The position numbers and the translations under genes were made by a program. From the NCBI GenBank assembly GCA_049523215.1, contig JBEKNC010000002.1, positions 127,963 to 191,962 of the forward strand: a stretch of DNA of 64,000 nucleotides, in the 5' to 3' direction. Of the stretch, positions 7,963 through 62,401 are shown piece by piece (positions within the stretch are counted from its first letter, which is position 1; every line of letters starts with the position of its first letter). Below the pieces are notes generated by a model. That model was not told the DNA's origin and did not search any database. It worked only from the letters and a program-made list of their open reading frames with translations. This DNA comes from Bacteroidota bacterium. GTDB lineage: Bacteria; Bacteroidota; Ignavibacteria; UBA10030.

Positions 7963-9123
7963 ATGATGACCCCACAAAATATTAAAAATATAGCAGACCA
8001 ATTTGAAACTCCTTTATATATTTATGATGCTGATAATATTAAAGAAAATCTTTCAGCTATTTTAAAATATCTATATTATAAAAAATCTAGGGTTTATTTT
8101 GCAGTTATGTGCAATAACCAACTTGAAATTTTGAAAATTATAAAAAATTTAGGTTTAGGAGCTCAAGTAAATTCAGAATATGAATTAGAAATAGTGAAAA
8201 AAGCGGGGTTTAATTCTTCAGATATTTCATTTAGTTCTACTGGAATTAGCACGGAGTTAATGAGAAAACTTATTGAAGCAAACATAGAGGTTAACTTAGA
8301 TTCTGCCGAGGAAGTAGAAAAATTTTGTGCACTTACTAGGAATAAAACCTTTGGTATAAGAGTTAAGATTCCCAAAATTATTAAGATTCATTCTGACGAA
8401 GCCACCAATATTTTTTTAAATTCAAATATGGGAATTAATGAGAAAGATTTTTACAAAATAAAAACAACCGCTTTTAGGACGGGGAATAGAATTGTAGGTG
8501 TTCATGGATATTTCGCTTCTAATATTCTTAATACAAAGCCTTTTATTGAATTTGGAGACTTTTTAGCAAAGAAAGCAATTTCGTTTCCAGACTTGAAATA
8601 TATCAACTTTGGTAGCGGTTTTGGAGTGAGATATTTAGAAAAGGATAAAGATTTTAATTTTAAAAAAGTTCTGAATTATTACTCAACTCTAAGCGATGGA
8701 TTATCCAAGAAATTTCAGAGAGAAATAATTATCAAAATTGAACCAGGAAGATCTATTTTGGCAAGTTCTGGCACTTTATTAGTAAGGGTTACAAATATAA
8801 AAAAACTGAACCCTAAAAAATCGGAAATTTCTGTTAATGCTGGTTTTGCAGAACTTGCAAGACCGAGAACTTACAACTCTTATCACAAAATTGAAAATTT
8901 AGAAAAAACAGGGAGAATAAAAAGAGTTTATGACATAAGAGGAAATACCGTTCTGCAAAATGATTTTTTGGGACGAAATAGAATATTAGAAGACGTTAAG
9001 GAGGACGATTTTCTTCTGATAAAAAATGTTGGGGCTTATGGAAGTGTAATGGCTTCTGGATTCCCTGGAAAAAGACTTCCCAAGCAAATATTAATAAATA
9101 AAAATCAGATTAAAGAAATATAG
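7963..9123 (+). CDS. Orn/DAP/Arg decarboxylase-family (fold-type III PLP) homolog whose Schiff-base lysine is replaced by Met; likely a pseudoenzyme or divergent enzyme
   Basis: The family signature [FY]-[PA]-x-K-[SACV]-[NHC]… is matched by FAVMCNNQLEILKIIKNLG, except that K is M. The Gly-rich NFGSGFGV and the EPGRS motifs are present. The gene is strongly AT-rich relative to its flanks. Confidence 0.7.
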   Translation: MMTPQNIKNIADQFETPLYIYDADNIKENLSAILKYLYYKKSRVYFAVMCNNQLEILKIIKNLGLGAQVNSEYELEIVKKAGFNSSDISFSSTGISTELMRKLIEANIEVNLDSAEEVEKFCALTRNKTFGIRVKIPKIIKIHSDEATNIFLNSNMGINEKDFYKIKTTAFRTGNRIVGVHGYFASNILNTKPFIEFGDFLAKKAISFPDLKYINFGSGFGVRYLEKDKDFNFKKVLNYYSTLSDGLSKKFQREIIIKIEPGRSILASSGTLLVRVTNIKKLNPKKSEISVNAGFAELARPRTYNSYHKIENLEKTGRIKRVYDIRGNTVLQNDFLGRNRILEDVKEDDFLLIKNVGAYGSVMASGFPGKRLPKQILINKNQIKEI

Positions 9124-11759: not shown

Positions 11760-11775
11760 TGTTAAATTAAGCCAT

Positions 11776-11840
11776 TGTGTGATTGAGCGATTGAGTCAAT
11801 TCGTGATTTAGCGATTAAGTGATTTAGTGATTAAAGAAAT
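11776..11840. repeat. tandem 8-bp repeat array (GATTNAGY units)
   Basis: GATTGAGC GATTGAGT CAATTCGT GATTTAGC GATTAAGT GATTTAGT GATTAAAG. 8-bp periodicity. Confidence 0.8.
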
Positions 11841-11845
11841 AGTTT

Positions 11846-12205
11846 TCATCTCCTGCCGCGTGCGGTTTGATTGGACGCTGAAAAAATAGCAATCAATTCA
11901 TTCGCTTCTTTGAGTAATTCATTCGTCTTTTCTGGTGAAAGTATATTGAGATCTGTGACCATTTCAAGCCAAAACACAGTTTCATCAGCTTCTTCTACAA
12001 CAATACCAATTTTCGCTATGAACTCTGCTTTCGAACGGGCTCGGCAAACAGCCCGATAATTTGCAGCAACTGATGTTGCAGAACGCATCAATTGTCTTCC
12101 AATAATTCTGGCTTCTTCATTCTTTGGGAATGTTCGAACAAGTCTTACAATTTGAATTGCAAATTGCTTTGTTCGATCTCTTAATATTTCCGGCTGACTT
12201 TTCAT
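11846..12205 (-). CDS. four-helix-bundle protein (TIGR02436-like; the family historically annotated 23S rRNA-intervening-sequence protein)
   Basis: 119 aa carrying the characteristic …RQLMRSATSVAANYRAV…SKAEFIAKIGIVVEEADETVFWLEM… pattern. Confidence 0.8.
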   Translation of the reverse strand: MKSQPEILRDRTKQFAIQIVRLVRTFPKNEEARIIGRQLMRSATSVAANYRAVCRARSKAEFIAKIGIVVEEADETVFWLEMVTDLNILSPEKTNELLKEANELIAIFSASNQTARGRR

Positions 12206-12214
12206 AACGAATCA

Positions 12215-12300
12215 ATCACTCATTCTCACAATCACCCAATCACTTAATCACCCAATCACTTAATCATCCAATCTCTCAATCACATATTCACCCAATCTCC
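12215..12300. repeat. tandem 8-bp repeat array, inverted relative to 11776-11840
   Basis: AATCACTC ATTCTCAC AATCACCC AATCACTT AATCACCC AATCACTT AATCATCC AATCTCTC AATCACAT… is the reverse complement of GTGATTRRGT units. Confidence 0.8.
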
Positions 12301-15989: not shown

Positions 15990-16075
15990 GAAAGTGAAGA
16001 TAGGAGATTAAGAGATTTGGTGATTGGGTGATTAAGTGATTGGGTGATTGAATGATTGAGAGATGTTGAGAGATA
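15990..16075. repeat. tandem 8-bp repeat array (GTGATTRRG units), third copy
   Basis: GATTAAGA GATTTGGT GATTGGGT GATTAAGT GATTGGGT GATTGAAT GATTGAGA GATGTTGA GAGATAGG. It has the same orientation as 11776-11840 and is inverted relative to 12215-12300. Confidence 0.8.
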
Positions 16076-16853
16076 GGGAAAAAAAATTGAGAGAAAGTGC
16101 TGGAAGAAAAAAAAGAAGGCTTGATTAGCTATGACCCCATCAGTCCCCAGAGGTCGTTTTGCGCGTTCGCATATAAAAATAGACACACGCTTTGTGTGTG
16201 TTTGTAATGGGCCTCCGGCTGCCCTGATAGAAAAGATTCCATGAGGAATCAACGTCATTCCGGCGTGATTCTAGTCGGAATCCAGGGTCTAGATAACCTA
16301 CAACCAATATTTGTTATTTGAGTTAACGCCGCTTTCTTTTGGCGAAAAGAAAGCGACAGAAAGAAACGCTTGTGAAATCGAAATGTGTTTTCTCAAGGTT
16401 GAACTAAGATTGGGGATATGATAAACTCATTGTTAGAAATATAATGTACGGAAGGATTGGAATACACCTTGTCTTGACCCGTCTTTCTTCTATCGATTTC
16501 GCGGCTTAGAGATAAGAATATGAAAAACACGGCGGATAGAGAACTCCTGACTCCACTTGGCCTCCACCTTCTTGACAATGCACTCAAGAAAAACCATATT
16601 GTTCCTGTTCCCGGATTACCAAAGCGCTTAATAGTTATTACCTGTGTATTTTTATGACGTATGCTGAAGAAATAACATTTGAGATGAAGAGAAATATCAT
16701 TCGACTTTTCATGCGTAATAGTCGCAAAAAGCCGACTCAGTCTCACGAAGTTTCCAAAGGAATCCCTTTGGGAGATGCCTTTGGCAGACCTAATCACAGG
16801 TTAGGCGCATAAAAACGTTACACTATTAAATGTAGATGAATATGGAATGAAAT

Positions 16854-17939
16854 ATGAGACTGTACTCAACACCGCTGTCAGCTTCAAGATTGGAAATCAC
16901 GAAGCTTGCAATTATTGAAACAGTATTATCGCTTTCTATCTATTCATTCATTGTCCTGTATTTTGGAAGTCTTAAATACCTTGTAGTTATTATCGTTTTA
17001 GCTCCTCTTACACTATTCCGGACTGATAGTTCTTCAGAATGGGCCATTGATAAATTTAAACTCATTCTTGAAAATCTAAATAAATGGGTTTTTAATTCTT
17101 GGAATGGGAAAGCAATAATTTATCGAGTTCTGCTTGCATTTATTCTTTGGCCTTTATTTGGTGTAAGTCTGCGGGTTGTTTCGACTATTTATTTTTTTAT
17201 TAAGAATCCAATATCTGTAATTGTTGAAATGCCTCGGAACTGGATGCGACAGTGCATTTGTACAGATTTTATGCATCCACCAGAAATATTGCCAATGGAA
17301 TGTGTTAAATCTAGTATAGATAAAAATGTACATTCATTTTATACTTGGAAAAAAGGCCTTATTGATGCGCGTTATTCTGTAAAGTTTGGACTCTTAATAT
17401 TTACTTTACCTTTTTGGATTATTGGATGGATACCTTCTTTATTCTATCGTATTTCATTCAAAGCGACATCTATTGTATATCTACCCTTTATCTGGGTTGC
17501 AAATCTCACCATGCAAAATCCATTACCAGTCAAAAAACGACTTGAGAGATTTACTCAGGGAGAACTGGAAAAGGTTCGTCGTGGCTACTCTTGGATTATT
17601 ATAGTCATGTTACTTTCAAAGATTGGTTTTATATTAGGGTATATTGATATTAATTTCATAACCCAAAAATATTTAAATGAGAGAATTGTAAATACTATTA
17701 TTGTTCCAAATAGTTGGGCATCTTGGCAGATAACATTAGGAATAGACGCATTGTTAACATTCTTTCTACTCTTCTTTACTGATTCAGCACTTGCAAGACT
17801 TGATCATAAACCTTTTTTTAAAGAAGAAACGATATTAAATACTGTTTCATTTATCTCATTTATTAGAGCTGCAATCAGTATTTTTACTATTTCAATATTC
17901 TTTTTTTATGCTCTCAATTTGTTTTTTTTAAAGCAATGA
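16854..17939 (+). CDS. hypothetical polytopic membrane protein (cassette cargo)
   Basis: 361 aa with at least 8 hydrophobic helices. Very AT-rich. Followed 6 bp later by an attC-like element. Confidence 0.6.
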   Translation: MRLYSTPLSASRLEITKLAIIETVLSLSIYSFIVLYFGSLKYLVVIIVLAPLTLFRTDSSSEWAIDKFKLILENLNKWVFNSWNGKAIIYRVLLAFILWPLFGVSLRVVSTIYFFIKNPISVIVEMPRNWMRQCICTDFMHPPEILPMECVKSSIDKNVHSFYTWKKGLIDARYSVKFGLLIFTLPFWIIGWIPSLFYRISFKATSIVYLPFIWVANLTMQNPLPVKKRLERFTQGELEKVRRGYSWIIIVMLLSKIGFILGYIDINFITQKYLNERIVNTIIVPNSWASWQITLGIDALLTFFLLFFTDSALARLDHKPFFKEETILNTVSFISFIRAAISIFTISIFFFYALNLFFLKQ

Positions 17940-17944
17940 AATGT

Positions 17945-18103
17945 GCGCATAACCCGCGGCTCAAGCTGACCGGATGAGCGTTAGTGCATTTTACATTGCG
18001 CGTAGAGGTTTAGTACAGAATTGAAAGTGAAGTGAATGAACTTGGTTCGTTCCGTGCAATTTGAAAGTTCACATTGTCGCAGCTTAGCGCCGGTCCATTA
18101 GGC
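17945..18103 (+). repeat. attC-like site (long variant of the family, reverse-complement orientation relative to array II)
   Basis: GCGCATAACCCGCGGCTCAAGCTGACC … GAACTTGGTTCGTT … GCAATTTGAAAGTT … CGCAGCTTAGCGCCGGTCCATTAGGC. Near-identical to the reverse complement of the 55-61 kb elements. Confidence 0.7.
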
Positions 18104-18132
18104 GGTTGCCAAAATTAATAAGGATTACACAG

Positions 18133-19032
18133 ATGTCAAATAATATTGCGTCTCTCTCTGAATCGACCTTCAGATCAAATATTCGCCACACTGGTTTGCC
18201 AAGCTGTAATATTGATATTAGAACGTTGAAAAAGTTATTTGGTAAATTGAACGAGTGTTGTCGCGAGGCAGCCACAATTGAATTGTCAAAATTACGCCAA
18301 GGCACAATGACTACAGAGCAATACGAAAAATTCAAGAATGATGTAGCCGAATCATATAAAATTAATGTAGAGATACTTGGGAAAAAAGGGGAATACTTTT
18401 CATCAACCTCAGAATCCTTGCTTGATGAAAATGTTTTACCAAGTCAATTAGTAAGACTTACTTTCAATAGTGAATTCCTTTTTAAGACAGCATTCAATGC
18501 CGTTCCAATGAACAGCGTAAAAATCATTATTGATTTTAATAAAGCCACAGTACTTGATTTTTCCTCAAACCCTTCACACCCGACATCCAATGATAGTGTT
18601 ATTGACGTTCTTGGCCAGACAGAATCTTGGGTGGATGGAGTTTATAAGGCTGTGAATGATATTCTTAAAGAATGTAGTACGCATCGAACTTGGTTGCACA
18701 GGAGAGGAATATATGATTTATTTCTATGGTTATTTATTATTCCTCTTTCCTTCTGGAATCTTCATAAATTAGTCTTAGGGTTCCCCACTTTCTTTAATGC
18801 AATTTCCGGTGTAATTCAAGTATTTGTCTCAATCTATTTTCTACTTCTCATTATTTTACTTTATAGAGCATTCTTCAGTTATGCTCGCTGGGTTTTTCCT
18901 TATATCGAACTTAGTTCTACTTCAAAGACTACATCGACCAGGCATAGAATATTTTTTACCGGATTAACACTAACATTGACTTATGGATTGTTGAAAGATT
19001 TAATAAAGAGAATTATTGAAATTATATTTTAA
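18133..19032 (+). CDS. hypothetical protein with C-terminal transmembrane helices (cassette cargo)
   Basis: The ORF-track reading frame opens with TTG at 18106. I used the first ATG (MSNNIASL…), 30 nt after the attC core. The C-terminus has two hydrophobic helices. AT-rich. Confidence 0.55.
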   Translation: MSNNIASLSESTFRSNIRHTGLPSCNIDIRTLKKLFGKLNECCREAATIELSKLRQGTMTTEQYEKFKNDVAESYKINVEILGKKGEYFSSTSESLLDENVLPSQLVRLTFNSEFLFKTAFNAVPMNSVKIIIDFNKATVLDFSSNPSHPTSNDSVIDVLGQTESWVDGVYKAVNDILKECSTHRTWLHRRGIYDLFLWLFIIPLSFWNLHKLVLGFPTFFNAISGVIQVFVSIYFLLLIILLYRAFFSYARWVFPYIELSSTSKTTSTRHRIFFTGLTLTLTYGLLKDLIKRIIEIIF

Positions 19033-19044
19033 TGTATAGCAACT

Positions 19045-19128
19045 GCCTAACTAGGCGCTCCCGCCCAACAAGACAGCGGGGCAGGCAAGCTCGGCTTGTC
19101 CAGAAGGCGAAGCGGCCATCCGTTAGGC
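19045..19128 (+). repeat. attC-like site (short variant)
   Basis: GCCTAAC TAG GCGCTCCCGCC…GGCGGG…CAAGCTCGGCTTGT…GCGGCCATCC GTTAGGC. The termini are perfect 7-bp inverted repeats. Confidence 0.7.
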
Positions 19129-19169
19129 AGCCCTAAAAGTGGGATATCAATCAATAAAGGTGTCGTATT

Positions 19170-19448
19170 ATGATTTTCACACTCATCTATTTTTTCTTCA
19201 TCGTCTGGATAACTATTGTACTGTCTAAATCTATCAAGATAGTGCGAGAGGATCAGCGAGTTGTGATTTTTCGTTTGGGAAAGTATTTTGGTGTTGGTGG
19301 CCCAGGAATAGTTTTTATTTTACCATTTGTAGATAAAATACAAAAGGTCGATCTAAACGAGTCTTTACCAGGATGGCAAACATTACCCAAAGAACTTCTT
19401 GAAGAAAGACTGAAATCACTTGTCATCTATAAGTCAAACAGTTTTTAA
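19170..19448 (+). pseudogene. SPFH/band-7 (stomatin/HflC-like) domain protein, N-terminal fragment only
   Basis: 92 aa: TM helix followed by IVREDQRVVIFRLGKYFGVGGPGIVFILPFVDKIQKVDL, which is the start of an SPFH domain. The sequence terminates long before the domain would end. Confidence 0.5.
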
Positions 19449-19454
19449 CGGGCT

Positions 19455-19700
19455 GCCTAACCAGGCGCTCCCCGCTAATCCCGTAAAAAACACGGGACGC
19501 AAAAAACGCGAAAGCGACGGGGTTTCGCATAAAGCGCTCAACAAGCTCGGCTTGTCTGGAAGAATGCATCACAGCCGGAGCCCTGAGAATGTATCGCGCA
19601 AAGCGCGAAACAATTTCTTAAAAGTGATACAATATTTCTCAATGAGCCCACTGCAATTTACATGGCGCGCATAGGTTTAGTACAGAGAAGTTACAGACTG
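19455..19700 (+). repeat. attC-like site, rearranged or truncated
   Basis: It begins GCCTAAC CAG GCGCTCC and contains CAAGCTCGGCTTGT and the CATTTACATGGCGCGCATAGGTTTAGTACAGA block shared with the element at 17945-18103. It lacks the terminal …GTTAGGC. Confidence 0.5.
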
Positions 19701-19777
19701 GATTTAATATTGCCACAAAAAATTCTTATAAAATAAATATGCAATTGCCTAAAATATTTTAACGAAAGGATATTAAG

Positions 19778-21088
19778 ATGAATCATCGAGAAGTTATCCA
19801 AAAAGCAAAAAAGTATATAACGCTTTTGAAGCTAGTCTTTATTCTGGTGTTTATAACACAAAGAATGCTATATGCAACTGGCGGCATACCTGCCGGCAGC
19901 GGCACGATTGCAGATCCGTTTCTCATAGCAGACTATGCCGATCTGAAGGTTGTCGGAACATCGACCGCTTATCCGGGTAGCGCGGTGTACCGTCTTGTCG
20001 CCGATATCGATGCTGCGGCATCGCAATCCGAAAATGCCGGCGCTGGATTTGTGCCCATCAACGACAGTACGATCAATTATTTTACCGGCACCTTTCATGG
20101 TGCGGTTCACGTCATCAGAAACCTGCATATCAGCGGTCCGGTCGGCAATAATGCAGCGCTTTTCGCAAATTTGTGGGGTGGAACGATCGACAGTCTGGGG
20201 GTGCTGAATGCGCATGTTACTGCCGATGGCGGATACGTCGGCATTCTCGTTTCAGATAATAATACCGGAACGATCACCAATTGCTATGTCACCGGAAGTG
20301 CGATAAACACCAACGGCAGTGCGGGGGGACTCGTTTGTGGAAGCACCGGCACTATCAGCAACTGCTTTTCAACCGCCAACGTTTCGGGCACAGATTATGT
20401 TGGCGGTCTCATGGCTACGAATAGCGATATCGCGAGCAACTGCTACACAACCGGCACTGTGTCGGGGCGCAACTATGTCGGCGGGATCGCAGGGGATAAT
20501 ACATCGACGCTCACCGACTGCTACGCAATCGGGAGCGTATCGGGAAGCGGTTTGTATATCGCCGGGATCGCGGGCGGGAATCATATTGCAACCGATTGCT
20601 ACTGGGACACACTCACGACGGGGTGTGCGTCAGGATGTGCATTTTCCTCAGGGTCGTTTTCCGGAGCCGGTTTGTCAACTGCTGAGATGAAGCAGTCGTC
20701 GTCGTACAGCGGATGGGATTTTACCACCATCTGGTCTATTAATCCGAGCATCAACGGCGGATATCCGTATCTTACGTCGAACATTATTACATCCGTTCAA
20801 GCGGCGGCAATCGGTACACCGAAATCCTTTTTGCTTCTGCAAAATTACCCCAATCCTTTTAATCCGACAACGACTATACGATTCTCGGTCGAGAAGGATG
20901 GCAGAGCGGCAGTAAAAGTGTTCGATATTTTGGGTCGCGAAATGGCGATATTGTTCTATAATGTTGCAAAAGCGGGACAGTACTATACATCGACATTCAA
21001 CGGGTCGAAATTTTCATCAGGCGTGTATTTTTATACTATCGAAAGCAACAATCAACATCTAGTGAAAAAGATGATGATATTGAAATAG
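19778..21088 (+). CDS. secreted GLUG-motif repeat protein with a type IX secretion system C-terminal sorting domain
   Basis: Signal peptide. Tandem NCYxTGxVSGxxYVGG(L/I)xGxN (GLUG-like) repeats. The C-terminus …QNYPNPFNPTTTIRFSV…VKVFDILGREMAIL…GVYFYTIES… matches the Por_Secre_tail/T9SS domain. Confidence 0.85.
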   Translation: MNHREVIQKAKKYITLLKLVFILVFITQRMLYATGGIPAGSGTIADPFLIADYADLKVVGTSTAYPGSAVYRLVADIDAAASQSENAGAGFVPINDSTINYFTGTFHGAVHVIRNLHISGPVGNNAALFANLWGGTIDSLGVLNAHVTADGGYVGILVSDNNTGTITNCYVTGSAINTNGSAGGLVCGSTGTISNCFSTANVSGTDYVGGLMATNSDIASNCYTTGTVSGRNYVGGIAGDNTSTLTDCYAIGSVSGSGLYIAGIAGGNHIATDCYWDTLTTGCASGCAFSSGSFSGAGLSTAEMKQSSSYSGWDFTTIWSINPSINGGYPYLTSNIITSVQAAAIGTPKSFLLLQNYPNPFNPTTTIRFSVEKDGRAAVKVFDILGREMAILFYNVAKAGQYYTSTFNGSKFSSGVYFYTIESNNQHLVKKMMILK

Positions 21089-21103
21089 TAAACTGCAATT
21101 GCG

Positions 21104-21194
21104 GCTGACCAGGCGCTCCCGCCTAAAAGACGGCGGGCAAGCAAGCTCGGCTTGTATAGAAGAATGCATCACGCGAGGCGGTCATGTGTTAGGC
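21104..21194 (+). repeat. attC-like site (short variant, left core degenerate GCTGAC)
   Basis: GGCTGACC AG GCGCTCCCGCC…GGCGGGCAAGCAAGCTCGGCTTGT…GGTCATGT GTTAGGC. Highly similar to the site at 19045-19128. Confidence 0.6.
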
Positions 21195-21247
21195 GGGCAG
21201 AAAAAAACTACAATTTTATCAAATATAAATTAAAAGCGAGAGGACTT

Positions 21248-21952
21248 ATGAAAGCTACACTCTATTGCTGTATGATTCTATTTATGTTTTCATGTGCCGT
21301 AAAGGCGCAGGATAGTACAAGTAATGTAAAAATAGATTCCGTGCTTTATTATCAAAAGAAGATGTTAAGTCAACAAGAAAAACTTTACAATGAAGTAGTA
21401 CGTTATAAAGAACCGCTGGAGAATAAAAAATTTGGTATCGAGATCAATCCGGCATATATGCTGTTCAGCAGTGCCCGTTCATATTTTGTGTTCAGCGGAG
21501 GATTTTCATTCTTCGATATAGACCGACACGCAGAAATTGCATGTCCAATTTTTTATCAGAACGGAGCCGGTAAAAACTCAGGAGTTCATGAATTGACGCT
21601 GTGGAATCAAGATATAGTATATCGGAAATTTTTGGGACAGCATCAGGACGGATTTTACCTTGAGGGGGGCTTACGATATACGCACATCAAAGGAGAATCT
21701 AACGATGGTGTTTCCATACTGGGAGTAAGTTTATTTTCAACATCTCCTACGTCAATAATAACCACGGATAAGCTGGGAGGGATGTTTGGCATCGGGTACA
21801 GGTATTTTTCGACATCAGGATTTTATTGGGGAACAAGTCTCGTGGTAGGGGCGTATTTTTCTGCTGATGAAAGAACAATACAAGGGATAATATTGGATGA
21901 TACAAAAACCATTTTTGATTTTGAAATACTGAAATTTGGTTATGCGTTCTAA
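21248..21952 (+). CDS. outer-membrane beta-barrel protein (cassette cargo)
   Basis: Signal peptide MKATLYCCMILFMFSCAVKAQ. Alternating amphipathic strands. C-terminal …FGYAF with a terminal Phe, typical of OMP barrels. Confidence 0.6.
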   Translation: MKATLYCCMILFMFSCAVKAQDSTSNVKIDSVLYYQKKMLSQQEKLYNEVVRYKEPLENKKFGIEINPAYMLFSSARSYFVFSGGFSFFDIDRHAEIACPIFYQNGAGKNSGVHELTLWNQDIVYRKFLGQHQDGFYLEGGLRYTHIKGESNDGVSILGVSLFSTSPTSIITTDKLGGMFGIGYRYFSTSGFYWGTSLVVGAYFSADERTIQGIILDDTKTIFDFEILKFGYAF

Positions 21953-21957
21953 CTGCG

Positions 21958-22023
21958 CCCTAACATCGGCGCTCACTCGGCTTATCCAGAAGAATGCGTC
22001 GCATTTAGGAGCTATCGTTAGGT
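21958..22023 (+). repeat. attC-like site (66 bp)
   Basis: CCCTAAC ATC GGCGCTCACTCGGCTT…GAGCTATC GTTAGGT. Confidence 0.55.
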
Positions 22024-22063
22024 GATCCGAAAACTGACCTGCATTCAAAAACAGGAAGATAAA

Positions 22064-22522
22064 ATGTCTATAAATGCAAAATACGTCCATACAAATTTGA
22101 TCGCACGCGATTGGCAAAAGCTATCGTCTTTTTATCAAGAGGTATTCGGATTCAAACCAGTTCCACCTGAGCGACATTATAAAGGTATCGACCTTGAACG
22201 TGGCACAGGTGTTCAAGGATCTGAACTTCATGGCATTCATCTACGAATGCCAGGATATGATGATAGTGGTCCGACATTGGAAATTTACTCTTACTCTATT
22301 CCAAAAGAAGGTCTAGTTCCGGCGGTCAATCGTCCTGGATTTGGACACATTGCATTATCAGTTGTTGATGTGATCAAGGCTCAAGATATCGTTTTGCAGG
22401 CAGGTGGAAAATCTGTGGGAGAAATTGTAACGTTGCAAACATCTGCAGGAGCTAAGGTAACTTGGTGCTATGTGACAGATCCTGAAGGCAATATTATCGA
22501 ATTACAATCGTGGTCAAAATAA
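22064..22522 (+). CDS. VOC-family (glyoxalase/bleomycin-resistance/dioxygenase fold) protein
   Basis: About 150 aa from MSINAKYVHTNLIARDW…FGHIALSVVDV…DPEGNIIEL, typical of VOC proteins. This is a classic cassette cargo type. Confidence 0.75.
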   Translation: MSINAKYVHTNLIARDWQKLSSFYQEVFGFKPVPPERHYKGIDLERGTGVQGSELHGIHLRMPGYDDSGPTLEIYSYSIPKEGLVPAVNRPGFGHIALSVVDVIKAQDIVLQAGGKSVGEIVTLQTSAGAKVTWCYVTDPEGNIIELQSWSK

Positions 22523-22554
22523 AAGAAGTCAATTCATCAGCAAGGAGGATTACC

Positions 22555-23979
22555 ATGAGCAGAAACTTCTTATCAACCGTGTGCTGCTTTTTTATTTTTA
22601 TAGGTACCTGTTCTCAAACACTTCTTGCTCAAACATCCGAAGGAACGCCGGCACTCACAGCCCATCAAAAATTGGCCCGCAGCATATTTCGCGAACTTAT
22701 TGAAACCAACACAACTATGAATATTGGGAGCGGGAAAGCAGCTGAAGCGATGGCTTCACGCTTGAAAGCTGCGGGCTTTTCCGATAACGATATTCAACTG
22801 GTGGGCCCACGTCCTCAGAATATGAACCTCATCGTACGCTACAAAGGCAAAGGTGCCCTTCGCCCCATTCTTTTTTTTGGGCATCTGGATGTTGTCGAAG
22901 CGCTCCGGCAGGATTGGTCGTTCGATCCGTTCGTCTTTCTTGAAAAAGACGGATTTTTTTATGGTCGCGGAACATCCGACATGAAGAACGAGGATGCAGA
23001 TATCGTCGCAAACCTTATACGCCTGAAAAGTGAAGGATTCGAGCCAAATAGAGACATCATTGTGGCTTTGACGGAACACGAAGAGGGGGGTGACGCAAAC
23101 GGTATCAAGTGGCTCCTCGCAAATCGACGTGACCTCATCGATGCAGAGTTCGCCATTAACCTTGAAGGCGGTGGAGGCGATATTAAGAGCGGCAAATACT
23201 TTCTGATGGATATACAAACGGGCGAAAAGGTCTACGTGAGCTTCCAACTCGAAGTCAAGAACAAGGGCGGTCATAGCTCTTTACCAGTGAAAGACAACGC
23301 CATCTACCGACTTGCAGCAGGACTCTCGCGCCTGGCACAATACGAATTCCCAATTAGGCTTAATGAGACCACCCGGACATTTTTTCAACGGGCAGCCAGT
23401 CAAGAAAGCGGACAGGCCGCAGCAGATATGCTAGCAATCTTGAAAATACCAATTGATACGTCTGCTTCCAATCGCCTCTGCGCGTCCTCCGCTTATTACA
23501 ATGCATTACTGCGAACGACATGTGTTGCAACGATGCTCTCAGCCGGACATGCCGAGAACGCTCTGCCTCAGACTGCCCGTGCTGTTGTCAATTGTCGCAT
23601 GCTGCCAGATGATTCTATAGAGAATGTAATCGCGACCCTGACTCGTATCCTTGCCGACAGTCAAATTGCCGTCTCGCAAATCAGCCAAATGAATTTAAGT
23701 CCTCTTTCGCCGCTCCGCAAAGACGTGATGGATAACGTCGAGAAACTCACGGCCTCGATGTGGCCGGGAGTAACAGTGACTCCCGTTATGTCCACCGGTG
23801 CATCTGATGGCAGATACCTGCGCAAGGCGGGAATCCCGGTCTATGGTGTCTCAGGCATTTTTGACGATGTTGATGACATTCGTGCACACGGTAGAGATGA
23901 GAGGATTGGCATTCAAGATTTCTACAATGGGGTCGAGTTCATGTACAGGTTTATCAAGGCTCTTACCTCGGGATCGTAG
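22555..23979 (+). CDS. secreted M20-family metallopeptidase (ArgE/DapE/carboxypeptidase G2-like)
   Basis: Signal peptide, then GHLDVV…DMKNEDADIV…EHEEGG…the dimerisation domain…HGRDERI. This pattern of M20 metal ligands supports the call. Confidence 0.85.
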   Translation: MSRNFLSTVCCFFIFIGTCSQTLLAQTSEGTPALTAHQKLARSIFRELIETNTTMNIGSGKAAEAMASRLKAAGFSDNDIQLVGPRPQNMNLIVRYKGKGALRPILFFGHLDVVEALRQDWSFDPFVFLEKDGFFYGRGTSDMKNEDADIVANLIRLKSEGFEPNRDIIVALTEHEEGGDANGIKWLLANRRDLIDAEFAINLEGGGGDIKSGKYFLMDIQTGEKVYVSFQLEVKNKGGHSSLPVKDNAIYRLAAGLSRLAQYEFPIRLNETTRTFFQRAASQESGQAAADMLAILKIPIDTSASNRLCASSAYYNALLRTTCVATMLSAGHAENALPQTARAVVNCRMLPDDSIENVIATLTRILADSQIAVSQISQMNLSPLSPLRKDVMDNVEKLTASMWPGVTVTPVMSTGASDGRYLRKAGIPVYGVSGIFDDVDDIRAHGRDERIGIQDFYNGVEFMYRFIKALTSGS

Positions 23980-24013
23980 CTTGATGATGCGAACCCAATA
24001 GCAACATATTGCG

Positions 24014-24081
24014 CCCTAATCCGGCGCTCAAGTCCCGCTATCAATATTAATTCTAATGTAGCGGGATGGCGCCTGCTAACA
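24014..24081 (+). repeat. degenerate attC-like inverted repeat
   Basis: CCCTAAT CC GGCGCTCAAGTCCCGCTA … TAGCGGGATGGCGCC TGCTAACA. The internal imperfect inverted repeat is retained and the terminal cores are decayed. Confidence 0.4.
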
Positions 24082-24187
24082 TCTTGAAGCAAATTTTGTG
24101 AAAAGGTTAGAGTAGCGTCCGACACGTTGTCGGACATTTATAGGATCATTGCGATAAATTCGTCCATCTACGAGATGGACTCTACAC

Positions 24188-25025: not shown

Positions 25026-25415
25026 CTATAGTGGGTCTAAAGATTTGCCAGTTCGCACTTTCACATGTTCATAGATATCCTGCATTACTCCATCTTCATT
25101 TTCGAAGATATCAAAATTAGAATATCGAATTACTTTACAGCCAATTCCATGCAAGTAATCGTCTCTTTCGATATCATTTTGCATTCCTTTGTTTGTATAG
25201 TGCTGACTACCATCAAGTTCAATGATAAGTTTCGCTTTTGCACTATAGAAGTCGACAACATAACGACCACAAGGGAATTGTCGACGGAATTTCACACCTA
25301 ACTGATTCCCTCTTAACAAAGCCCATAGTTTTCTTTCCGCATCGGTCATCTGTTTGCGAAGCACTCGTGCAATTGGCATTAATGACCTAGAATGTTGCGC
25401 AAGATGTTTCTTCAT
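25026..25415 (-). CDS. DUF559 (Vsr-like endonuclease-fold) domain protein inserted between sdhA and sdhB
   Basis: 129 aa with …RRQFPCGRYVVDFY…LIIELDGSQH…DIERDDYLHGIGCKVIRY…, typical of the DUF559 / very-short-patch-repair-like family. Confidence 0.7.
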   Translation of the reverse strand: MKKHLAQHSRSLMPIARVLRKQMTDAERKLWALLRGNQLGVKFRRQFPCGRYVVDFYSAKAKLIIELDGSQHYTNKGMQNDIERDDYLHGIGCKVIRYSNFDIFENEDGVMQDIYEHVKVRTGKSLDPL

Positions 25416-52993: not shown

Positions 52994-53956
52994 TCAATCC
53001 CAGCCACTTACAACATCGACAGCGATGCGGCCGTGCACAGCGCCTGACTGAAGGCGTTTGAGACCGGCGGCGACGTCCTTAATTTTCACGGTTTGAAAAA
53101 CCGGGACTTTAAGTCCATGCCTGAGCCAGCTCCCGAGCAGATCGAGGTCCTGCGCGCGTGGTTTGACGATGACGAAGTGCGCGCGAGTAGGTGTTACAAT
53201 ACTGGCAAGCTTATCCCGGAAGAATGCGGGAGTAGGCAGAGTGGTCACATAAGCGCCGCCCCTCTCGATGAGGTGCCGGCTTGCTTGCCATGAAGATGCG
53301 GCGGCAGTGTCGAAGACCAAGTTGAAGGGTCCGCTTGCGGTTTGGAGAGGAGAGACCTTCAGGCGATCGATAACCTCTTCGGCTCCGAGCTCCTTGACGA
53401 AATCCACAGCGTGTGTGGCACAGATTGCGGTCACACGGGCTCCCAGCTTGAGCGCAACCCCGACGGCAACTGAACCTACACCGCCCGAAGCGCCGATGAC
53501 GAGTACGCGTCCACTCGAAGTTAGCTTGCCGATGTCGCGCAGAGATTGAAGAGCGGTGAGACCGGCGGTGGCGCTTGCGGCAGCAATCGTATGCGCTATC
53601 CCTTCGGGTTTTTTGGCGAGCGCAGTCGCATTTGCGAGTGTGAATTCAGCGAAAGCACCGAGCCGGGTTGCACGGCCGTACGGGAGATGTCCGAAAACCT
53701 CATCGCCCCGCTCAAGACCGGAAACATTTCTCCCCAGCGCATCGATGACGCCCGAGAAATCGAAGCCCACGACCATGGGGAAGACGCGGGCGTGGAGGAT
53801 TTTCGTCTCGCCTGTAACAGATTTGAAGTCGGCAGGATTGAGCGCCGATGCGTGGACACGTATACGAACCTGACCGGGACCCGGTTCGGGCAGCGGCAGA
53901 TCTACGATCCTCAGTGATTCGAGAGGGCCGTAAGAAGGAGAAACGAGTGCGCGCAT
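52994..53956 (-). CDS. zinc-type alcohol dehydrogenase / NADPH:quinone oxidoreductase (MDR superfamily)
   Basis: Rossmann GxGxxG (VIGASGGVGSVAV) and GroES-like N-terminal domain. Confidence 0.85.
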   Translation of the reverse strand: MRALVSPSYGPLESLRIVDLPLPEPGPGQVRIRVHASALNPADFKSVTGETKILHARVFPMVVGFDFSGVIDALGRNVSGLERGDEVFGHLPYGRATRLGAFAEFTLANATALAKKPEGIAHTIAAASATAGLTALQSLRDIGKLTSSGRVLVIGASGGVGSVAVGVALKLGARVTAICATHAVDFVKELGAEEVIDRLKVSPLQTASGPFNLVFDTAAASSWQASRHLIERGGAYVTTLPTPAFFRDKLASIVTPTRAHFVIVKPRAQDLDLLGSWLRHGLKVPVFQTVKIKDVAAGLKRLQSGAVHGRIAVDVVSGWD

Positions 53957-54126: not shown

Positions 54127-54327
54127 TTAATCATTCTCCTTCCGCAGTGTCGCCTTCCATCCGTCTTCCGGATCGAGCCTAACATCGACCTGCCACGGTC
54201 GACAACATACCGGGCAGTCCTGCACGAAGGACTGGCGACTTCCCCCGCTCTCATCGACGTCCAGCTCTACGTCCTCGCCGCAGTAGGGACAGTTTAGTGG
54301 AACGGGTTCAATCATCTGATTCTCCAC
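54127..54327 (-). CDS. CPXCG-motif cysteine-rich zinc-ribbon protein
   Basis: 66 aa with CPYCG…and…CPVCC, two CxxC pairs. Confidence 0.65.
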   Translation of the reverse strand: MENQMIEPVPLNCPYCGEDVELDVDESGGSRQSFVQDCPVCCRPWQVDVRLDPEDGWKATLRKEND

Positions 54328-54338
54328 GGCGGGTTAGC

Positions 54339-54472
54339 ACCTAACGATGGCCACTCCGCCAAACAACCGGCGGACAAGCCGAGCTTGTCTGCCCCGCTGT
54401 ATTTTTGTCCGTTTCGATATTCATATCGAAACGCGATCTCGACGAAGTCGGACGGGGAGCGCCTGGTTAGGC
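54339..54472 (-). repeat. attC-like site E1 (distal end of array II)
   Basis: ACCTAAC…CAAGCCGAGCTTGTC…hairpin GTTTCGATAT/ATATCGAAAC…GGAGCGCC TG GTTAGGC. Confidence 0.65.
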
Positions 54473-57383: not shown

Positions 57384-57592
57384 AGCGTAAGCGGCCTAAC
57401 GGATCGGCGCTAAGCTGCGGCGTGACCAACTTTCAATTTGTACAAAACGAAATGAGTTCATGCTAGTACTTTCAATTTTGTACTGACCTATGCACGCCAT
57501 GCTTAACGCACCCAACTGGCAACCGTCAGCTAGCTTGTTGAGCGCTTTCTGCGAAATCCCGCTGTTTTCTAGCGGGAAGCGCCTGGTTAGGC
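57384..57592 (-). repeat. attC-like site E3
   Basis: GCCTAAC GGATCG GCGCTAAGCTGCGGCGTGACCAACTTTCAATTTGTACAAAACGAAATGAGTTCATGCT…hairpin CCCGCTGTTTTCTAGCGGG…AGCGCC TG GTTAGGC. Confidence 0.75.
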
Positions 57593-59541: not shown

Positions 59542-59750
59542 ACCTAACGGATCGGCGCTAAGCTGCGGCGCTGATAATTTTCAAAATGCACAAAACGAAA
59601 CAAGTTCCATGTCAAAAGATTTATCATTTGCACGCGACCTCTGCTCGCCATGAATTTTGCAGCGCGCTCATTGAGATTAAGTATCACGCTTCGCGTGATT
59701 CAGTTATCTGGACAAGCCGAACTTGAGCGCCTGGTTAGGCAGCAACTTAC
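59542..59750 (-). repeat. attC-like site E5
   Basis: ACCTAAC GGATCG GCGCTAAGCTGCGGCG…AACGAAACAAGTTCCATG…hairpin ATCACGCTTCGCGTGAT…ACTTGAGCGCC TG GTTAGGC. Confidence 0.75.
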
Positions 59751-60412: not shown

Positions 60413-60639
60413 CCACCTAACGGATGGCAACTAAGCTGCGGCAACGAGAAGCCGCAATTTTCTGAAAACGAACCAAGTTCATACTGATAAGTTTATTATT
60501 AAACATCTAAACCTCTATTAGCCATACTTAACGCACCACGCTCATTCAAATTTAGTATCGCGCTTTGCGCGATTCAATTATCTGGACAAGCCGAGCTTGC
60601 CTGCCCCGCTGTTTTCTAGCGGGGAGCGCCTGGTTAGGC
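60413..60639 (-). repeat. attC-like site E6 (longest, 227 bp)
   Basis: ACCTAAC GGATGG CAACTAAGCTGCGGCAACG…AACGAACCAAGTTCATACT…ATCGCGCTTTGCGCGAT…CCCCGCTGTTTTCTAGCGGGG AGCGCC TG GTTAGGC. Confidence 0.75.
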
Positions 60640-61746: not shown

Positions 61747-61754
61747 TTTATTTG

Positions 61755-61800
61755 CCGTGCGCCCTAACTACTGATTAGATAGACTCAGTCTATCTTTTGC
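61755..61800 (-). repeat. terminal core (GTTAGGG / CCCTAAC) followed by a 17-bp palindrome; end of array II, possible attI-like remnant
   Basis: GCGCCCTAAC TACTGATTA GATAGACTCAGTCTATC TTTTGCGC. Only the core half of an attC is present, followed by the perfect palindrome GATAGACT C AGTCTATC. Confidence 0.4.
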
Positions 61801-62107
61801 GCTTATAAGCATGATATATAGACTTTGTGTTTAATATTGTATTTAATTTCTCAAGAACTGTCATTGGCGATCCCCCAATGGTAATAATCAGAGATTTGAG
61901 ATTTTTGCTGGTATAATATACATGTTTATCGATGGGAGGGCAAGGTTAAAAGTAACAACATCCTAAACGGGTGATAGAAGAAAGAAAAGTTCGAAGGGAA
62001 TTTGTAAAAGAACTTAACAAATTGGTAATGATTTGTTCATCGTTTGGAAAAGCGGATTTGCTATTTTATGGCATCAATAATCAACAACAATTTACAAGGA
62101 GGTTCAA

Positions 62108-62257
62108 ATGAAACAATGGTTATCAGCACACATCCTCTCTTCCGATGATTTCATGCCGGAAGATACCTTTCCCCCCAGCAATGAAGAGTTTTATATAACT
62201 CTCAGTATGGTGGGCATTGCTTTAGTGTTATTTGCCGTTATTGTACATTTTCTCTGA
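62108..62257 (+). CDS. small hypothetical membrane protein (49 aa)
   Basis: Strong RBS (CAAGGAGGTTCAAATG). C-terminal TM helix. Preceded by the 23-bp motif shared with 50701. Confidence 0.3.
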   Translation: MKQWLSAHILSSDDFMPEDTFPPSNEEFYITLSMVGIALVLFAVIVHFL

Positions 62258-62401
62258 ACTTGATGTACCTCTTTCATTTGTCATTATCAGGTTATAAAAA
62301 GTTCATGGAAATAGATGTTCATACATTCCCTTCACTTTGACGTATGAAGATGTAAAAAAAATCAATCCACAACTATTCACAAAAAAAAGGAACAACAAAC
62401 A

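What the first reader, a model, noticed from the sequence alone, without database searches (positions are those of the whole stretch)
16854..24081. Second cassette array in the opposite orientation, with shorter attC variants and AT-rich cargo
Seen in sequence: eight plus-strand CDSs sit in this interval, grouped into six gene units. They are the unknown membrane protein, the unknown TM protein, a truncated SPFH gene, the GLUG/T9SS protein, an OMP barrel, and the VOC plus M20 peptidase pair. Each gene unit is followed by an element that reads, on the coding strand, GCCTAAC-(C/T)AG-GCGCTC…GTTAGGC. This is the same family as array II but reverse-complemented. One copy is full length (17945-18103, about 160 bp, near-identical to the reverse complement of the 55-61 kb copies). 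The others are short 66-91-bp variants sharing CAAGCTCGGCTTGT. The cargo is conspicuously AT-rich compared with the flanking housekeeping genes. Inference: this is a second CALIN, or the other half of a split array. VOC-fold enzymes and truncated genes are typical integron cargo.
Basis: partly seen in the sequence, partly recalled or inferred. Interest (0 to 1): 0.8.

Follow-up and report, generated by a model that had tools for sequence, protein, structure and literature searches.

The report
Decaying integron cassette array, no integrase
This stretch is a genuine integron gene-cassette array in the chromosome of an Ignavibacteria-type bacterium; it has its own insertion site but no integrase gene next to it and several worn-out recombination sites, which makes it a new example of a known kind of element.

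Summary
The repeats are real. The 5' arm motif matches 12 times in the window against 0.7 expected by chance. They are integron attC sites. A profile and a covariance model built only from metagenome copies recover 17947-18103 (118 bits) and 19045-19128 (34 bits). The family's bottom strand folds with the canonical R box, L box, bulged G16, 6-bp stem and bulged T23. The L box shows nine fully compensated sequence types. In related contigs the same attC family lies beside bona fide integron integrases (TIGR02249, 420 bits).

The array (about 16.5-24.1 kb) sits between a TPR gene and sdhB, which are adjacent in a more distant relative. It starts with a conserved leader and an attI-like site (16787-16806). 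The window has no intI, not even a remnant.

Only two of the six attC sites look intact (I_2, possibly I_5). I_1 has ATT instead of GTT and a mismatched L box. I_3 and I_6 lack the 3' arm. I_4 has lost its L box.

Relatives carry the same platform with entirely different cargo. In a relative about 96% identical, homology begins at the attC crossover. So cassettes were exchanged here in the past.

It is not half of a split array, because array II has its own attI. Integrons and integrase-less arrays (CALINs) are already known in Ignavibacteriae, so interest is modest.

The parts
16540..16735 (+). Conserved leader of the array platform. It contains a sigma-70-like TTGACA-17-CATATT at 16572-16600 pointing into the cassettes, and the start of a small ORF (16654-16812).
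   Evidence: It is 86-88% identical to L204 805-1003, which lies in the same position between the TPR gene and the first cassette. The promoter-like site comes, but the number of such sites in the region is not above chance. A role as cassette promoter is inference.
16787..16806 (+). attI-like simple site ACCTAAT-CACAG-GTTAGGC. The presumed crossover is G|TT at 16800/16801, which is the start of cassette 1.
   Evidence: It has the same architecture ([N]NCTAAT-N4-5-GTTAGGC) as the sites directly beside intI in L165, L111, L189 and L210, and as the start of array II. Only the core is shared, not the upstream attI sequence.
16854..17939 (+). Cassette 1 gene: 361-aa predicted membrane protein with no family match. 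GC3 0.24.
17947..18103 (+). attC I_1: full-length long type (157 nt), but defective. R'' is GCATAAC, R' is ATTAGGC (the conserved GTT/AAC triplet is lost), and the L box is GCGGCT/AGCGCC with only 4 of 6 pairs.
   Evidence: nhmmer E 5e-35; CM 118 bits on the bottom strand; the arms do not close the R box; it is one of the rare mismatched L''/L' combinations.
18133..19032 (+). Cassette 2 gene: 299 aa with C-terminal hydrophobic segments and no family match. GC3 0.30.
19045..19128 (+). attC I_2: 84-nt short type, the best preserved site. It has GCCTAAC..GTTAGGC (7/7 R box), an L box with one extra base, a bulged G, then a stem of about 6 bp.
   Evidence: CM 34 bits, E 7e-7, over the whole model with the interior skipped; folds.
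19170..19448 (+). Cassette 3 gene: 92 aa, comprising a TM segment and the first 41 positions of the Band_7/SPFH domain.
19455..19708 (+). attC I_3: a 5' fragment of an extra-long attC. It has R'', L'', nested hairpin modules and the interior up to model position ~77. There is no L'/R'.
   Evidence: partial nhmmer hit 19641-19691 (E 1e-5); partial CM hit 19641-19708 (25 bits).
19778..21088 (+). Cassette 4 gene: 436 aa, GLUG motif plus a type IX secretion C-terminal sorting domain. GC3 0.53.
   Evidence: Similar T9SS tails occur in many cassettes of the metagenome arrays.
21103..21194 (+). attC I_4: 92-nt short type. R'' is degenerate (GGCTGAC, R box 5/7), R' GTTAGGC is present, and the L' box is missing from the 3' arm.
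   Evidence: no CM hit at E<=10.
21248..21952 (+). Cassette 5 gene: 234 aa with a signal peptide; possibly an outer-membrane beta-barrel (only a sub-threshold hit).
21958..22023 (+). attC I_5: 66-nt minimal short type. It has CCCTAAC..GTTAGGT (R box 6-7 bp) and a weak inner stem. G|TT at 22017/22018 is the point where homology with the close relative L201 begins.
   Evidence: no CM hit.
22064..22522 (+). VOC/glyoxalase-fold gene (152 aa), first gene of the last unit.
   Evidence: The family is very common in Ignavibacteria/Bacteroidota. It is present beside sdhB without attC in L204 and L001.
22555..23979 (+). M20 family peptidase gene (474 aa; PRK09133 617 bits), second gene of the last unit. 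There is no attC between it and VOC.
   Evidence: The VOC-M20 pair is conserved in L201.
24015..24112 (+). attC I_6: terminal remnant. It has R'' CCCTAAT, L'' GGCGCT and an inserted hairpin module, then diverged sequence. A possible degenerate R' GTTAGAG lies at 24106-24112. The 3' limit is uncertain.
   Evidence: no CM hit. The flanks are conserved in L201, but the internal module differs.

Best explanation
The interval is a chromosomal integron cassette array in an Ignavibacteriota genome, inserted between a TPR-protein gene and sdhB. It consists of a conserved leader, an attI-like site, six cassette units (seven genes) and six attC sites. The attC family is specific to this lineage. There is no integron integrase gene in cis, which fits the definition of a CALIN.

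How such an array works is established integron biology. The bottom strand of each attC folds into a hairpin. An IntI tyrosine recombinase cuts it between A and C of the AAC triplet and exchanges it with attI or with another attC. That inserts or excises promoterless cassettes, which are read from a promoter upstream of attI.

Shown here:
- the sites have that architecture;
- the family is used by real integrases in relatives;
- the locus has exchanged cassettes between relatives at the attC crossover.

Inferred:
- This copy is now largely frozen. Four of the six attC sites have lost an essential part, so most cassettes can no longer be excised.
- Any residual activity (sites I_2 and I_5) would need an integrase encoded elsewhere in the genome.
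For: 1. Repeat family. There are 12 copies of the 5' arm against 0.7 expected, and the same family occurs in inverted orientation at 54-61 kb.

2. attC identity.
- The consensus bottom-strand fold of 54 copies gives an R box, an asymmetric spacer, a 6-bp L box, a bulged G, a 6-bp stem and a bulged T on the arm opposite AAC. These are positions 16 and 23 counted from the 3' end. They match the canonical G16/T23 with 6-bp spacing described in PMC5027507.
- Nine L''/L' sequence types are fully complementary among 206 copies. Mean Watson-Crick pairs are 5.87 against 5.25 +/- 0.03 in shuffles.
- The helix is 99.5% paired, against 18-47% when the partner is slid.
- The outermost R-box pair is unpaired in 20 of 51 copies, as expected if crossover at G|TT swaps the distal bases.

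3. Independent models built from metagenome copies only recover I_1 (E 5e-35; 118 bits), I_2 (34 bits, E 7e-7) and a fragment of I_3.

4. Link to integrases.
- The exact 3'-arm pattern is in at least 120 metagenome contigs, often several per contig.
- L165 carries it beside a divergent ORF scoring 420 bits on TIGR02249 integron integrase.
- L210 comes from the same MAG assembly as the sdhB relative L002 (89% identical). It has intI plus nine cassettes with attCs of 61-167 bits, eight of them above 138.

5. Anatomy. Each attC starts 5-35 nt after a stop codon. Where the preceding site is intact, the next ORF starts 29-53 nt after R'. All are on the same strand.

6. Insertion. L005 has PDT-FtsX-sdhCAB-(121 bp)-TPR-unk-Obg, which is the window order without the array.

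7. Turnover.
- L202-L204 have the same TPR gene, leader and attI-type site, followed by 13 different small genes and then VOC-sdhB.
- L201 is about 96% identical in the sdh region. It shares VOC-M20, and its blastn homology with the window starts at R' of I_5 (window 22017), with a different cassette and attC upstream.

8. No intI. tblastn with IntI1 (sequence recalled from memory) and with the L165 and L111 integrases finds nothing in the 64 kb. The best hit is E 0.46.
Against: - Three of the six sites (I_4, I_5, I_6) get no hit from the family covariance model even at E 10. They are assigned by eye from the shared 5' arm and the CTCGGCTTGTCCAGAAG module. I could not run the generic IntegronFinder attC model.
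- The attI-like site shares only a ~20-nt core with the proven attI sites. It was recognised post hoc.
- The last unit holds two genes with no attC between them. Its VOC gene belongs to a very common lineage family (5141 hits), and that gene sits beside sdhB with no attC in L204 and in an operon-like setting in L001. That unit may therefore be resident DNA rather than a cassette.
- The long sites (157 nt) lie outside the classical 57-141 bp range.
- No recombination was observed directly.
- Whether the genome has an integrase outside the window is unknown.
Confidence: 0.85

Rival explanations
1. The array is not a fossil. It is a working satellite platform: an attI plus cassettes that an integrase encoded elsewhere in the same genome keeps servicing in trans.
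For: - The leader and attI-type site are conserved at the same locus in L202-L204, although no intI is adjacent there either, and the cargo is completely different.
- A relative about 96% identical differs by a cassette, with blastn homology starting at R' of I_5, the attC crossover.
- A sister MAG carries a complete integron with the same attC family at another locus, so the window's genome could too.
- I_2 is intact.
Against: - Four of the six attCs in this copy are damaged.
- Most attCs in the L204 array also have one degenerate core. That is what is expected when selection for recombination has lapsed.
- Differences between relatives could date from before the loss of activity, or could come from homologous replacement of the whole array through the conserved flanks.
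- No integrase is visible in the window.
Confidence: 0.3
2. The VOC-M20 unit (22018-24014) is resident chromosomal DNA next to sdhB rather than a mobile cassette. On this reading the true array ends at I_5, and the element after M20 is a stray attC remnant.
For: - The VOC family is ubiquitous in this lineage, with a smooth identity gradient from 96% downwards.
- In L204 VOC lies directly beside sdhB with no attC on either side. In L001 it is in an operon-like run of genes without repeats.
- The unit has two genes, with 32 nt and no attC between them.
- M20 has host-like GC3 of 0.50.
Against: - In the window and in L201 the unit is bounded on the left by an R' crossover and on the right by an attC-type element with R''/L''.
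- More distant relatives with the TPR-sdhB junction (L005, L006) show no VOC match there.
- M20 is absent from L204.
Confidence: 0.35
3. Arrays I and II are two halves of one array, split by an inversion of the 30 kb between them.
For: The two arrays belong to the same attC family, face each other in inverted orientation and share modules.
Against: - Each array begins with its own attI-type site: 16787-16806 for array I and 61752-61840 for array II. The array II site aligns over about 85 nt with the attI beside intI in L165 and L210.
- The order PDT-FtsX-sdhCAB-TPR in L005 and L204 matches the window, so the left junction is ancestral and not an inversion breakpoint.
- The array-I locus carries its own short-type attC subfamily in relatives.
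Confidence: 0.04
4. The repeats are ordinary intergenic palindromic repeats (REP/MITE-like) unrelated to integrons.
For: - They are intergenic and palindromic, and highly similar to one another.
- They contain nested hairpin modules that also occur outside attCs, for example in the leader at 16745-16790.
- Unrelated REP-like palindromes and a Y1 transposase occur nearby in relatives.
Against: - The geometry is the canonical attC geometry with G16/T23.
- The sites are strictly co-oriented with the genes.
- The crossover signature appears at R'.
- The family is consistently adjacent to intI and attI in relatives.
Confidence: 0.02

Closest known systems
CALIN (cluster of attC sites lacking an integron integrase), as defined by IntegronFinder (Cury et al. 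2016; Neron et al. 2022, PMC9024848)
   Same: There are at least two co-oriented attC sites less than 4 kb apart, no intI nearby, fewer cassettes than complete sedentary integrons, and signs of degradation. [quoted passage not shown]
   Different: An attI-type site and a conserved leader are retained, and the same integrase-less platform recurs at the same chromosomal locus in relatives with other cargo. Membership was judged with a family-specific model, not with IntegronFinder's own attC model.
Sedentary chromosomal integrons, e.g. the Vibrio cholerae superintegron with its VCR attC sites
   Same: - It is chromosomal.
- The attC sites are highly similar to one another and specific to the lineage.
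- The cargo is mostly of unknown function and adapted to the host.
- The sites are long with large variable terminal structures.
- Cassette content differs between close relatives.
   Different: - No integrase is in cis.
- The array is short (six units).
- Many sites are damaged.
- The family's attCs are longer than VCRs (155-313 nt) and are built from optional nested hairpin modules.
- The host is in the Bacteroidota/Chlorobiota/Ignavibacteriota group, and many cassettes carry T9SS sorting tails.
Complete integrons of Ignavibacteriota MAGs (L165/L206, L210: intI-attI-cassettes)
   Same: They have the same attC family (CM 61-169 bits) and the same attI core architecture. The host lineage is closely related: L210 is from the same assembly as L002, whose sdhB is 89% identical.
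   Different: Those have a divergent intI 110-530 bp from attI and well-preserved long attCs, and they sit at another locus (next to an HHH_3 protein gene). Array I has no intI, has mostly short-type or damaged attCs, and sits between the TPR gene and sdhB.

Membership tests
integron attC site | Inverted core sites R'' (RYYYAAC) and R' (GTTRRRY) with the conserved GTT/AAC triplet at the crossover | tested here: inconclusive
   Met at family level and in I_2 and I_5. I_4 has R' only. Not met in I_1 (ATTAGGC), I_3 (no R') or I_6 (no clear R').
integron attC site | The bottom strand folds into a hairpin with R box, unpaired spacer and L box, and the pairing is maintained by compensatory change | tested here: met
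   Met for the family. The outer helix is 99.5% paired, and there are nine complementary L''/L' types. Within array I this holds fully only for I_2. I_1 has 4 of 6 L-box pairs, and I_4 lacks L'.
integron attC site | Extrahelical bases on the arm opposite AAC: G at position 16 and T at 23/24, separated by a 6-bp stem (PMC5027507) | tested here: met
   The consensus long type has bulged G and T at alignment columns 150 and 143, which are positions 16 and 23 from the 3' end, with 6 bp between them. I_2 approximates this. The short types I_4 and I_5 do not clearly show it.
integron attC site | Length 57-141 bp | tested here: not met
   The short types (66-92 nt) fit. The long type is 155-160 or ~195 nt, and reaches 313 nt in L118. 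This is a descriptive range rather than a mechanistic requirement.
integron attC site | Recombined by an integron integrase | not testable with these tools
   There is only indirect evidence: adjacency to intI in relatives and synteny breakpoints at R'.
integron cassette array | Mostly promoterless single ORFs, co-oriented, each closely followed by an attC | tested here: met
   Seven ORFs lie on the + strand. The gap from stop codon to R'' is 5-35 nt. The gap from R' to the start codon is 29-53 nt where the preceding site is intact. One unit has two genes.
complete integron | An intI gene (TIGR02249-type tyrosine recombinase) adjacent to attI | tested here: not met
   No IntI similarity anywhere in the window. 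The 134-aa ORF at 16393-16797 has no family match, and its translation looks non-genic.
complete integron | An attI site at the integrase-proximal end of the array | tested here: inconclusive
   16787-16806 has the core architecture of the attI sites beside intI in four related contigs. It lacks their upstream sequence.
CALIN | At least two attC sites clustered (less than 4 kb apart), with no integron integrase within 4 kb | tested here: met
   I_1 and I_2 pass an independent model and lie 942 nt apart. No intI is present in the 64 kb. This was not tested with IntegronFinder's own model.

The most novel reading that the evidence does not exclude
One integrase may serve several attI platforms. 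On this reading the integrase-less leader-attI platform at the TPR|sdhB locus is maintained across related Ignavibacteriota. It is loaded in trans by the IntI of a separate complete integron, as seen in a sister MAG. It would use its own short attC subfamily alongside an unusually long, modular attC family (155-313 nt, invaded by nested hairpin modules).
Probability: 0.25. Interest if true: 0.55.

Novelty: new member of a known kind. Interest (0 to 1): 0.35.

Why it matters
The finding adds a well-documented sedentary integron array to a phylum where integrons are known but barely described. It shows that a particular chromosomal junction (TPR gene | sdhB) serves as a cassette platform, with different cargo in related genomes.

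It also has practical value for annotation. This family's attC sites are far longer than the classical range and are modular, so tools run with default size limits may miss them or split them.

It does not change what is known about how integrons work. If trans-servicing of integrase-less attI platforms were demonstrated, it would bear on the open question of whether CALINs are dead remnants or active cassette reservoirs.

Tried and rejected
- Rfam at gathering thresholds finds only tRNA-Asn. There is no attC family in that library.
- I looked for an intI gene or remnant in the window and in the 700 bp left of the attI-like site: Pfam and NCBIfam on 16393-16797, and tblastn at E 10. Nothing was found.
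- I asked whether the conserved interior of the long attC encodes a 21-codon peptide (ATG/GTG AAC ... TAG inside GTTAGG). The frame is open in 139 of 150 copies, but variability is not concentrated at third codon positions (0.81/0.74/0.69 bits). I rejected this as a coding signal.
- RNAalifold finds no conserved structure in the ~110-nt interior.
- The family HMM and CM do not significantly detect the short variants I_4, I_5 and I_6.
- Short variants are rare among the metagenome contigs I fetched, but those contigs were selected through the long-type 3' arm. A loose search for the short-type 3' arm matched only long-type ends.
- None of the window's cassette proteins recurs in the 120 metagenome contigs, apart from T9SS tails.
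- Promoter-like and terminator-like sites in the interval are not above chance.
- An exact-protein look-up of SdhB found no source contig.
- L165's integrase-side flank is not homologous to the window beyond array II's attI. The genes flanking L210's integron are also absent from the window.

Full report
**What is there**

Between 16.85 and 23.98 kb lie seven credible plus-strand genes:
- a 361-aa membrane protein;
- a 299-aa protein with hydrophobic C-terminal segments;
- a 92-aa N-terminal fragment of a Band_7/SPFH protein;
- a 436-aa GLUG protein with a type IX secretion sorting tail;
- a 234-aa secreted protein that may be an outer-membrane barrel;
- a VOC/glyoxalase-fold protein;
- an M20 peptidase.

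They form six units, and each unit is followed within 5-35 nt by a member of one repeat family. The family is far beyond chance. The 5' arm CCTAACCAGGCGCTC (up to 3 mismatches) occurs 12 times against 0.71 expected. Four copies are on the plus strand here and seven on the minus strand at 54-61 kb. The repeat finder links the two regions as inverted repeats.

**The repeats are attC sites**

I scanned metagenome contigs for the exact 3' arm GCAGCTTAGCGCCNNTCCGTTAGG. The scan found at least 120 contigs, many with several copies 0.4-2 kb apart, and these yielded 150 distinct full copies.

I aligned 51 non-redundant copies with three window copies (54 sequences). Their bottom strand folds into a 22-bp outer helix. 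It consists of a 7-bp R box, an asymmetric spacer (5 nt against 2), a 6-bp L box, a bulged G, a 6-bp stem, a bulged T and three more pairs.

Counted from the 3' end, the bulged G and T are at positions 16 and 23. They lie on the arm opposite the AAC triplet. This is the geometry described for canonical attC sites: G16, T23/24 and a 6-bp stem between them (PMC5027507).

The pairing is under selection:
- The inner helix is 99.5% paired, against 18-47% when the partner is slid.
- Two of its pairs show compensatory changes.
- Across 206 copies with relaxed ends, the L box occurs in nine fully complementary sequence types. Examples are GGCGCT/AGCGCC, GCGGCT/AGCCGC, GCAACT/AGTTGC and GGCACT/AGTGCC. 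The mean is 5.87 Watson-Crick pairs, against 5.25 +/- 0.03 in shuffles.
- The outermost R-box pair is unpaired in 20 of 51 copies. That is expected if crossover at G|TT keeps exchanging the distal bases between cassettes.

**The family belongs to real integrons**

I used an IntI1 sequence recalled from memory only as a probe. It hit L165, L111, L086 and L189. The L165 ORF scores 420 bits on TIGR02249 integron integrase, where the cut-off is 265. Its source annotates it as an integron integrase.

That ORF is divergent from cassettes carrying this attC family. An attI of the form [N]TCTAAT-N4-5-GTTAGGC separates the two.

L210 comes from the same MAG assembly (JBEKAY01) as L002, whose sdhB is 89% identical to the window's. 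L210 is a complete integron: intI plus nine cassettes, with attCs that score 61-167 bits on my model, eight of them above 138.

The host is therefore an Ignavibacteriota bacterium, and its close relatives have working-looking integrons with this attC family. Integrons in Ignavibacteriae, and the CALIN category, are already in the literature (PMC9024848).

**State of the six sites in this array**

An nhmmer profile and a covariance model were built from metagenome copies only. In this interval they recover three elements:

| Site | Coordinates | Profile / model result |
|---|---|---|
| I_1 | 17947-18103 | E 5e-35; 118 bits |
| I_2 | 19045-19128 | 34 bits, E 7e-7, outer helix with the interior skipped |
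| I_3 (interior fragment) | 19641-19708 | 25 bits |

The condition of each site is as follows:
- **I_1** is full length but damaged. R' reads ATTAGGC, so the conserved triplet is lost. R'' reads GCATAAC. Its L box is the rare mismatched combination GCGGCT/AGCGCC, with 4 of 6 pairs.
- **I_2** is intact.
- **I_3** (19455-~19708) keeps R'', L'' and several modules but has no 3' arm.
- **I_4** (21103-21194) has R' but a degenerate R'' (GGCTGAC) and no L'.
- **I_5** (21958-22023) is a 66-nt minimal hairpin with a good R box and a weak inner stem.
- **I_6** (from 24015) keeps R''/L'' and an inserted hairpin module, which is also seen in L200 and L204. After that it diverges. A possible GTTAGAG lies at 24106-24112.

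I_4, I_5 and I_6 get no model hit even at E 10.

The short sites are not random debris. They share the module CTCGGCTTGTCCAGAAGAATGCATCAC(A)GCCGGAG and a common type of 3' arm. The same short type fills the intergenic spaces of the equivalent arrays in L204 and L201. The long family is itself modular, ranging from 155 to 313 nt with optional nested hairpins.

**Ends of the array**

On the left, cassette 1 starts at GTTAGGC (16800-16806). That sequence is part of ACCTAAT-CACAG-GTTAGGC. The same core occurs beside intI in L165, L111, L189 and L210, and at the start of array II.

Upstream lies a ~200-bp leader (16540-16735) that is 86-88% identical to the corresponding region of L204. The leader contains a TTGACA-17-CATATT element pointing into the array. 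A promoter role for that element is inference.

No integrase or integrase remnant exists between the leader and the TPR gene, or anywhere else in the 64 kb.

Array II begins with its own attI (61752-61840). It aligns over about 85 nt with the attI beside intI in L165 and L210. The two arrays are therefore separate platforms, not halves of one.

**Comparative evidence**

- **Empty site.** L005, a more distant Ignavibacteriales MAG, has PDT-FtsX-sdhCAB followed 121 bp later by the TPR gene, an unknown gene and Obg. That is the window's gene order without the array.
- **Same platform, other cargo.** L202-L204 have the same TPR gene, leader and attI-type site, then 13 small plus-strand genes that share nothing with the window's cargo, then VOC and sdhB. 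They too have no intI.
- **Breakpoint at the crossover.** L201 is about 96% identical across the sdh region. It has VOC-M20-sdhB as in the window. Upstream of VOC it carries a different gene and a ~235-nt attC. The blastn match with the window starts at window 22017, the R' of I_5. This is the signature of cassette exchange at the attC crossover.
- **Decay elsewhere.** Most attCs in L204 also have one degenerate core, so decay is not peculiar to the window.

**Cargo**

Composition is mosaic. GC3 is 0.24-0.35 for five genes, 0.53 for GLUG and 0.50 for M20, against 0.44-0.50 for the neighbouring housekeeping genes. 'AT-rich cargo' is therefore only partly true.

T9SS sorting tails like that of the GLUG protein are common among the metagenome cassettes, which indicates a cassette pool adapted to this bacterial group.

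The last unit is atypical:
- It has two genes with no attC between them.
- VOC belongs to a very common lineage family (5141 hits at E<=1e-20).
- VOC has no attC next to it in L204 or L001.

That unit may be resident DNA that the array abuts. I give that reading about one chance in three.

**Mechanism and verdict**

The best-supported account is an integrase-less, partly decayed integron cassette array (a CALIN) on a lineage-conserved attI platform. Cassettes were inserted and exchanged here by IntI acting on folded bottom-strand attC hairpins.

In this genome most sites have since lost an essential part. The cargo is therefore largely fixed and is expressed, if at all, from the leader or from internal promoters.

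Whether an integrase elsewhere in the genome still acts on the intact sites cannot be decided from the window. I give this about 0.3.

The finding is real and well anatomised, but it is a new member of a known kind. Its more unusual aspects are of specialist interest: the recurrent integrase-less platform, its own short attC subfamily, and the very long modular attCs in the family.

Noticed in passing
window 61752-61840 (- strand), and 61841-62400: Array II starts with an attI that aligns over about 85 nt with the attI beside intI in L165 and L210. No integrase follows it in the window, only AT-rich non-coding DNA and an unknown 371-aa ORF (62402-63517).
   Followed up: partly
L118 (1788-10600); also window 57394-57592, 59542-59740, 60415-60639: attC sites of this family reach 200-313 nt. 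They carry optional nested palindromic modules such as CCCCGCC..GGCGGGG, TCCCGATTTATCGGGA and a ~60-nt GTCCGATCCCGC...GGAACGGAC hairpin. A similar module lies in the window leader at 16745-16790. These may be small insertions that target hairpins.
   Followed up: partly
window 11765-11843, 12197-12297, 15990-16084: Arrays of 8-bp tandem repeats (GATTGAGT/GTGATTAA-like) flank the 23S rRNA intervening-sequence protein gene (11846-12205) and both ends of the 1216-aa TPR gene. Some are in inverted orientation (69-nt arms, 80% complementary).
   Followed up: no
window 25026-25415 (- strand): A DUF559 (Vsr-like endonuclease) ORF sits between sdhA and sdhB. It is also present in the close relative L201, but is absent from L204 and L002, where sdhA and sdhB are 13 bp apart.
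   Followed up: partly
window 24110-24180; L001 8780-10060; L201 3780-4620: REP-like palindromes (GTAGCGTCCGAC-N-GTCGGAC and CGTCCATCTACGAGATGGACTCTAC) lie downstream of sdhB. In L001 a ~180-aa ORF lies among them, and in L201 a Y1_Tnp (IS200/RAYT-type) gene does. This repeat system is unrelated to the attCs.
   Followed up: no
window 52994-53956 and 54130-54316 (- strand): A zinc-type alcohol dehydrogenase gene with GC 0.58, and a small cysteine-rich (CxxC-type) ORF, lie just beyond the last attC of array II (54339-54472). Both are much more GC-rich than the genome, so they may be terminal cassettes of foreign origin.
   Followed up: no
window 7963-9123: A PLP-dependent Orn/DAP/Arg decarboxylase gene lies in a ~1-kb stretch with GC 0.29, far below the window mean of 0.435.
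   Followed up: no
window 16654-16812: A 52-codon ORF starts in the conserved leader and runs through the attI-like site, ending just after GTTAGGC. Its first ~25 codons are conserved in L204. This recalls the short attI ORF of class 1 integrons (as I remember it, ORF-11), but I did not test for coding signal.
   Followed up: no
L086 1-1443: A tyrosine recombinase only 29% identical to IntI1 lies downstream of an attC of this family and in the same orientation as the cassettes. This is unlike the divergent arrangement in L165 and L210.
   Followed up: no
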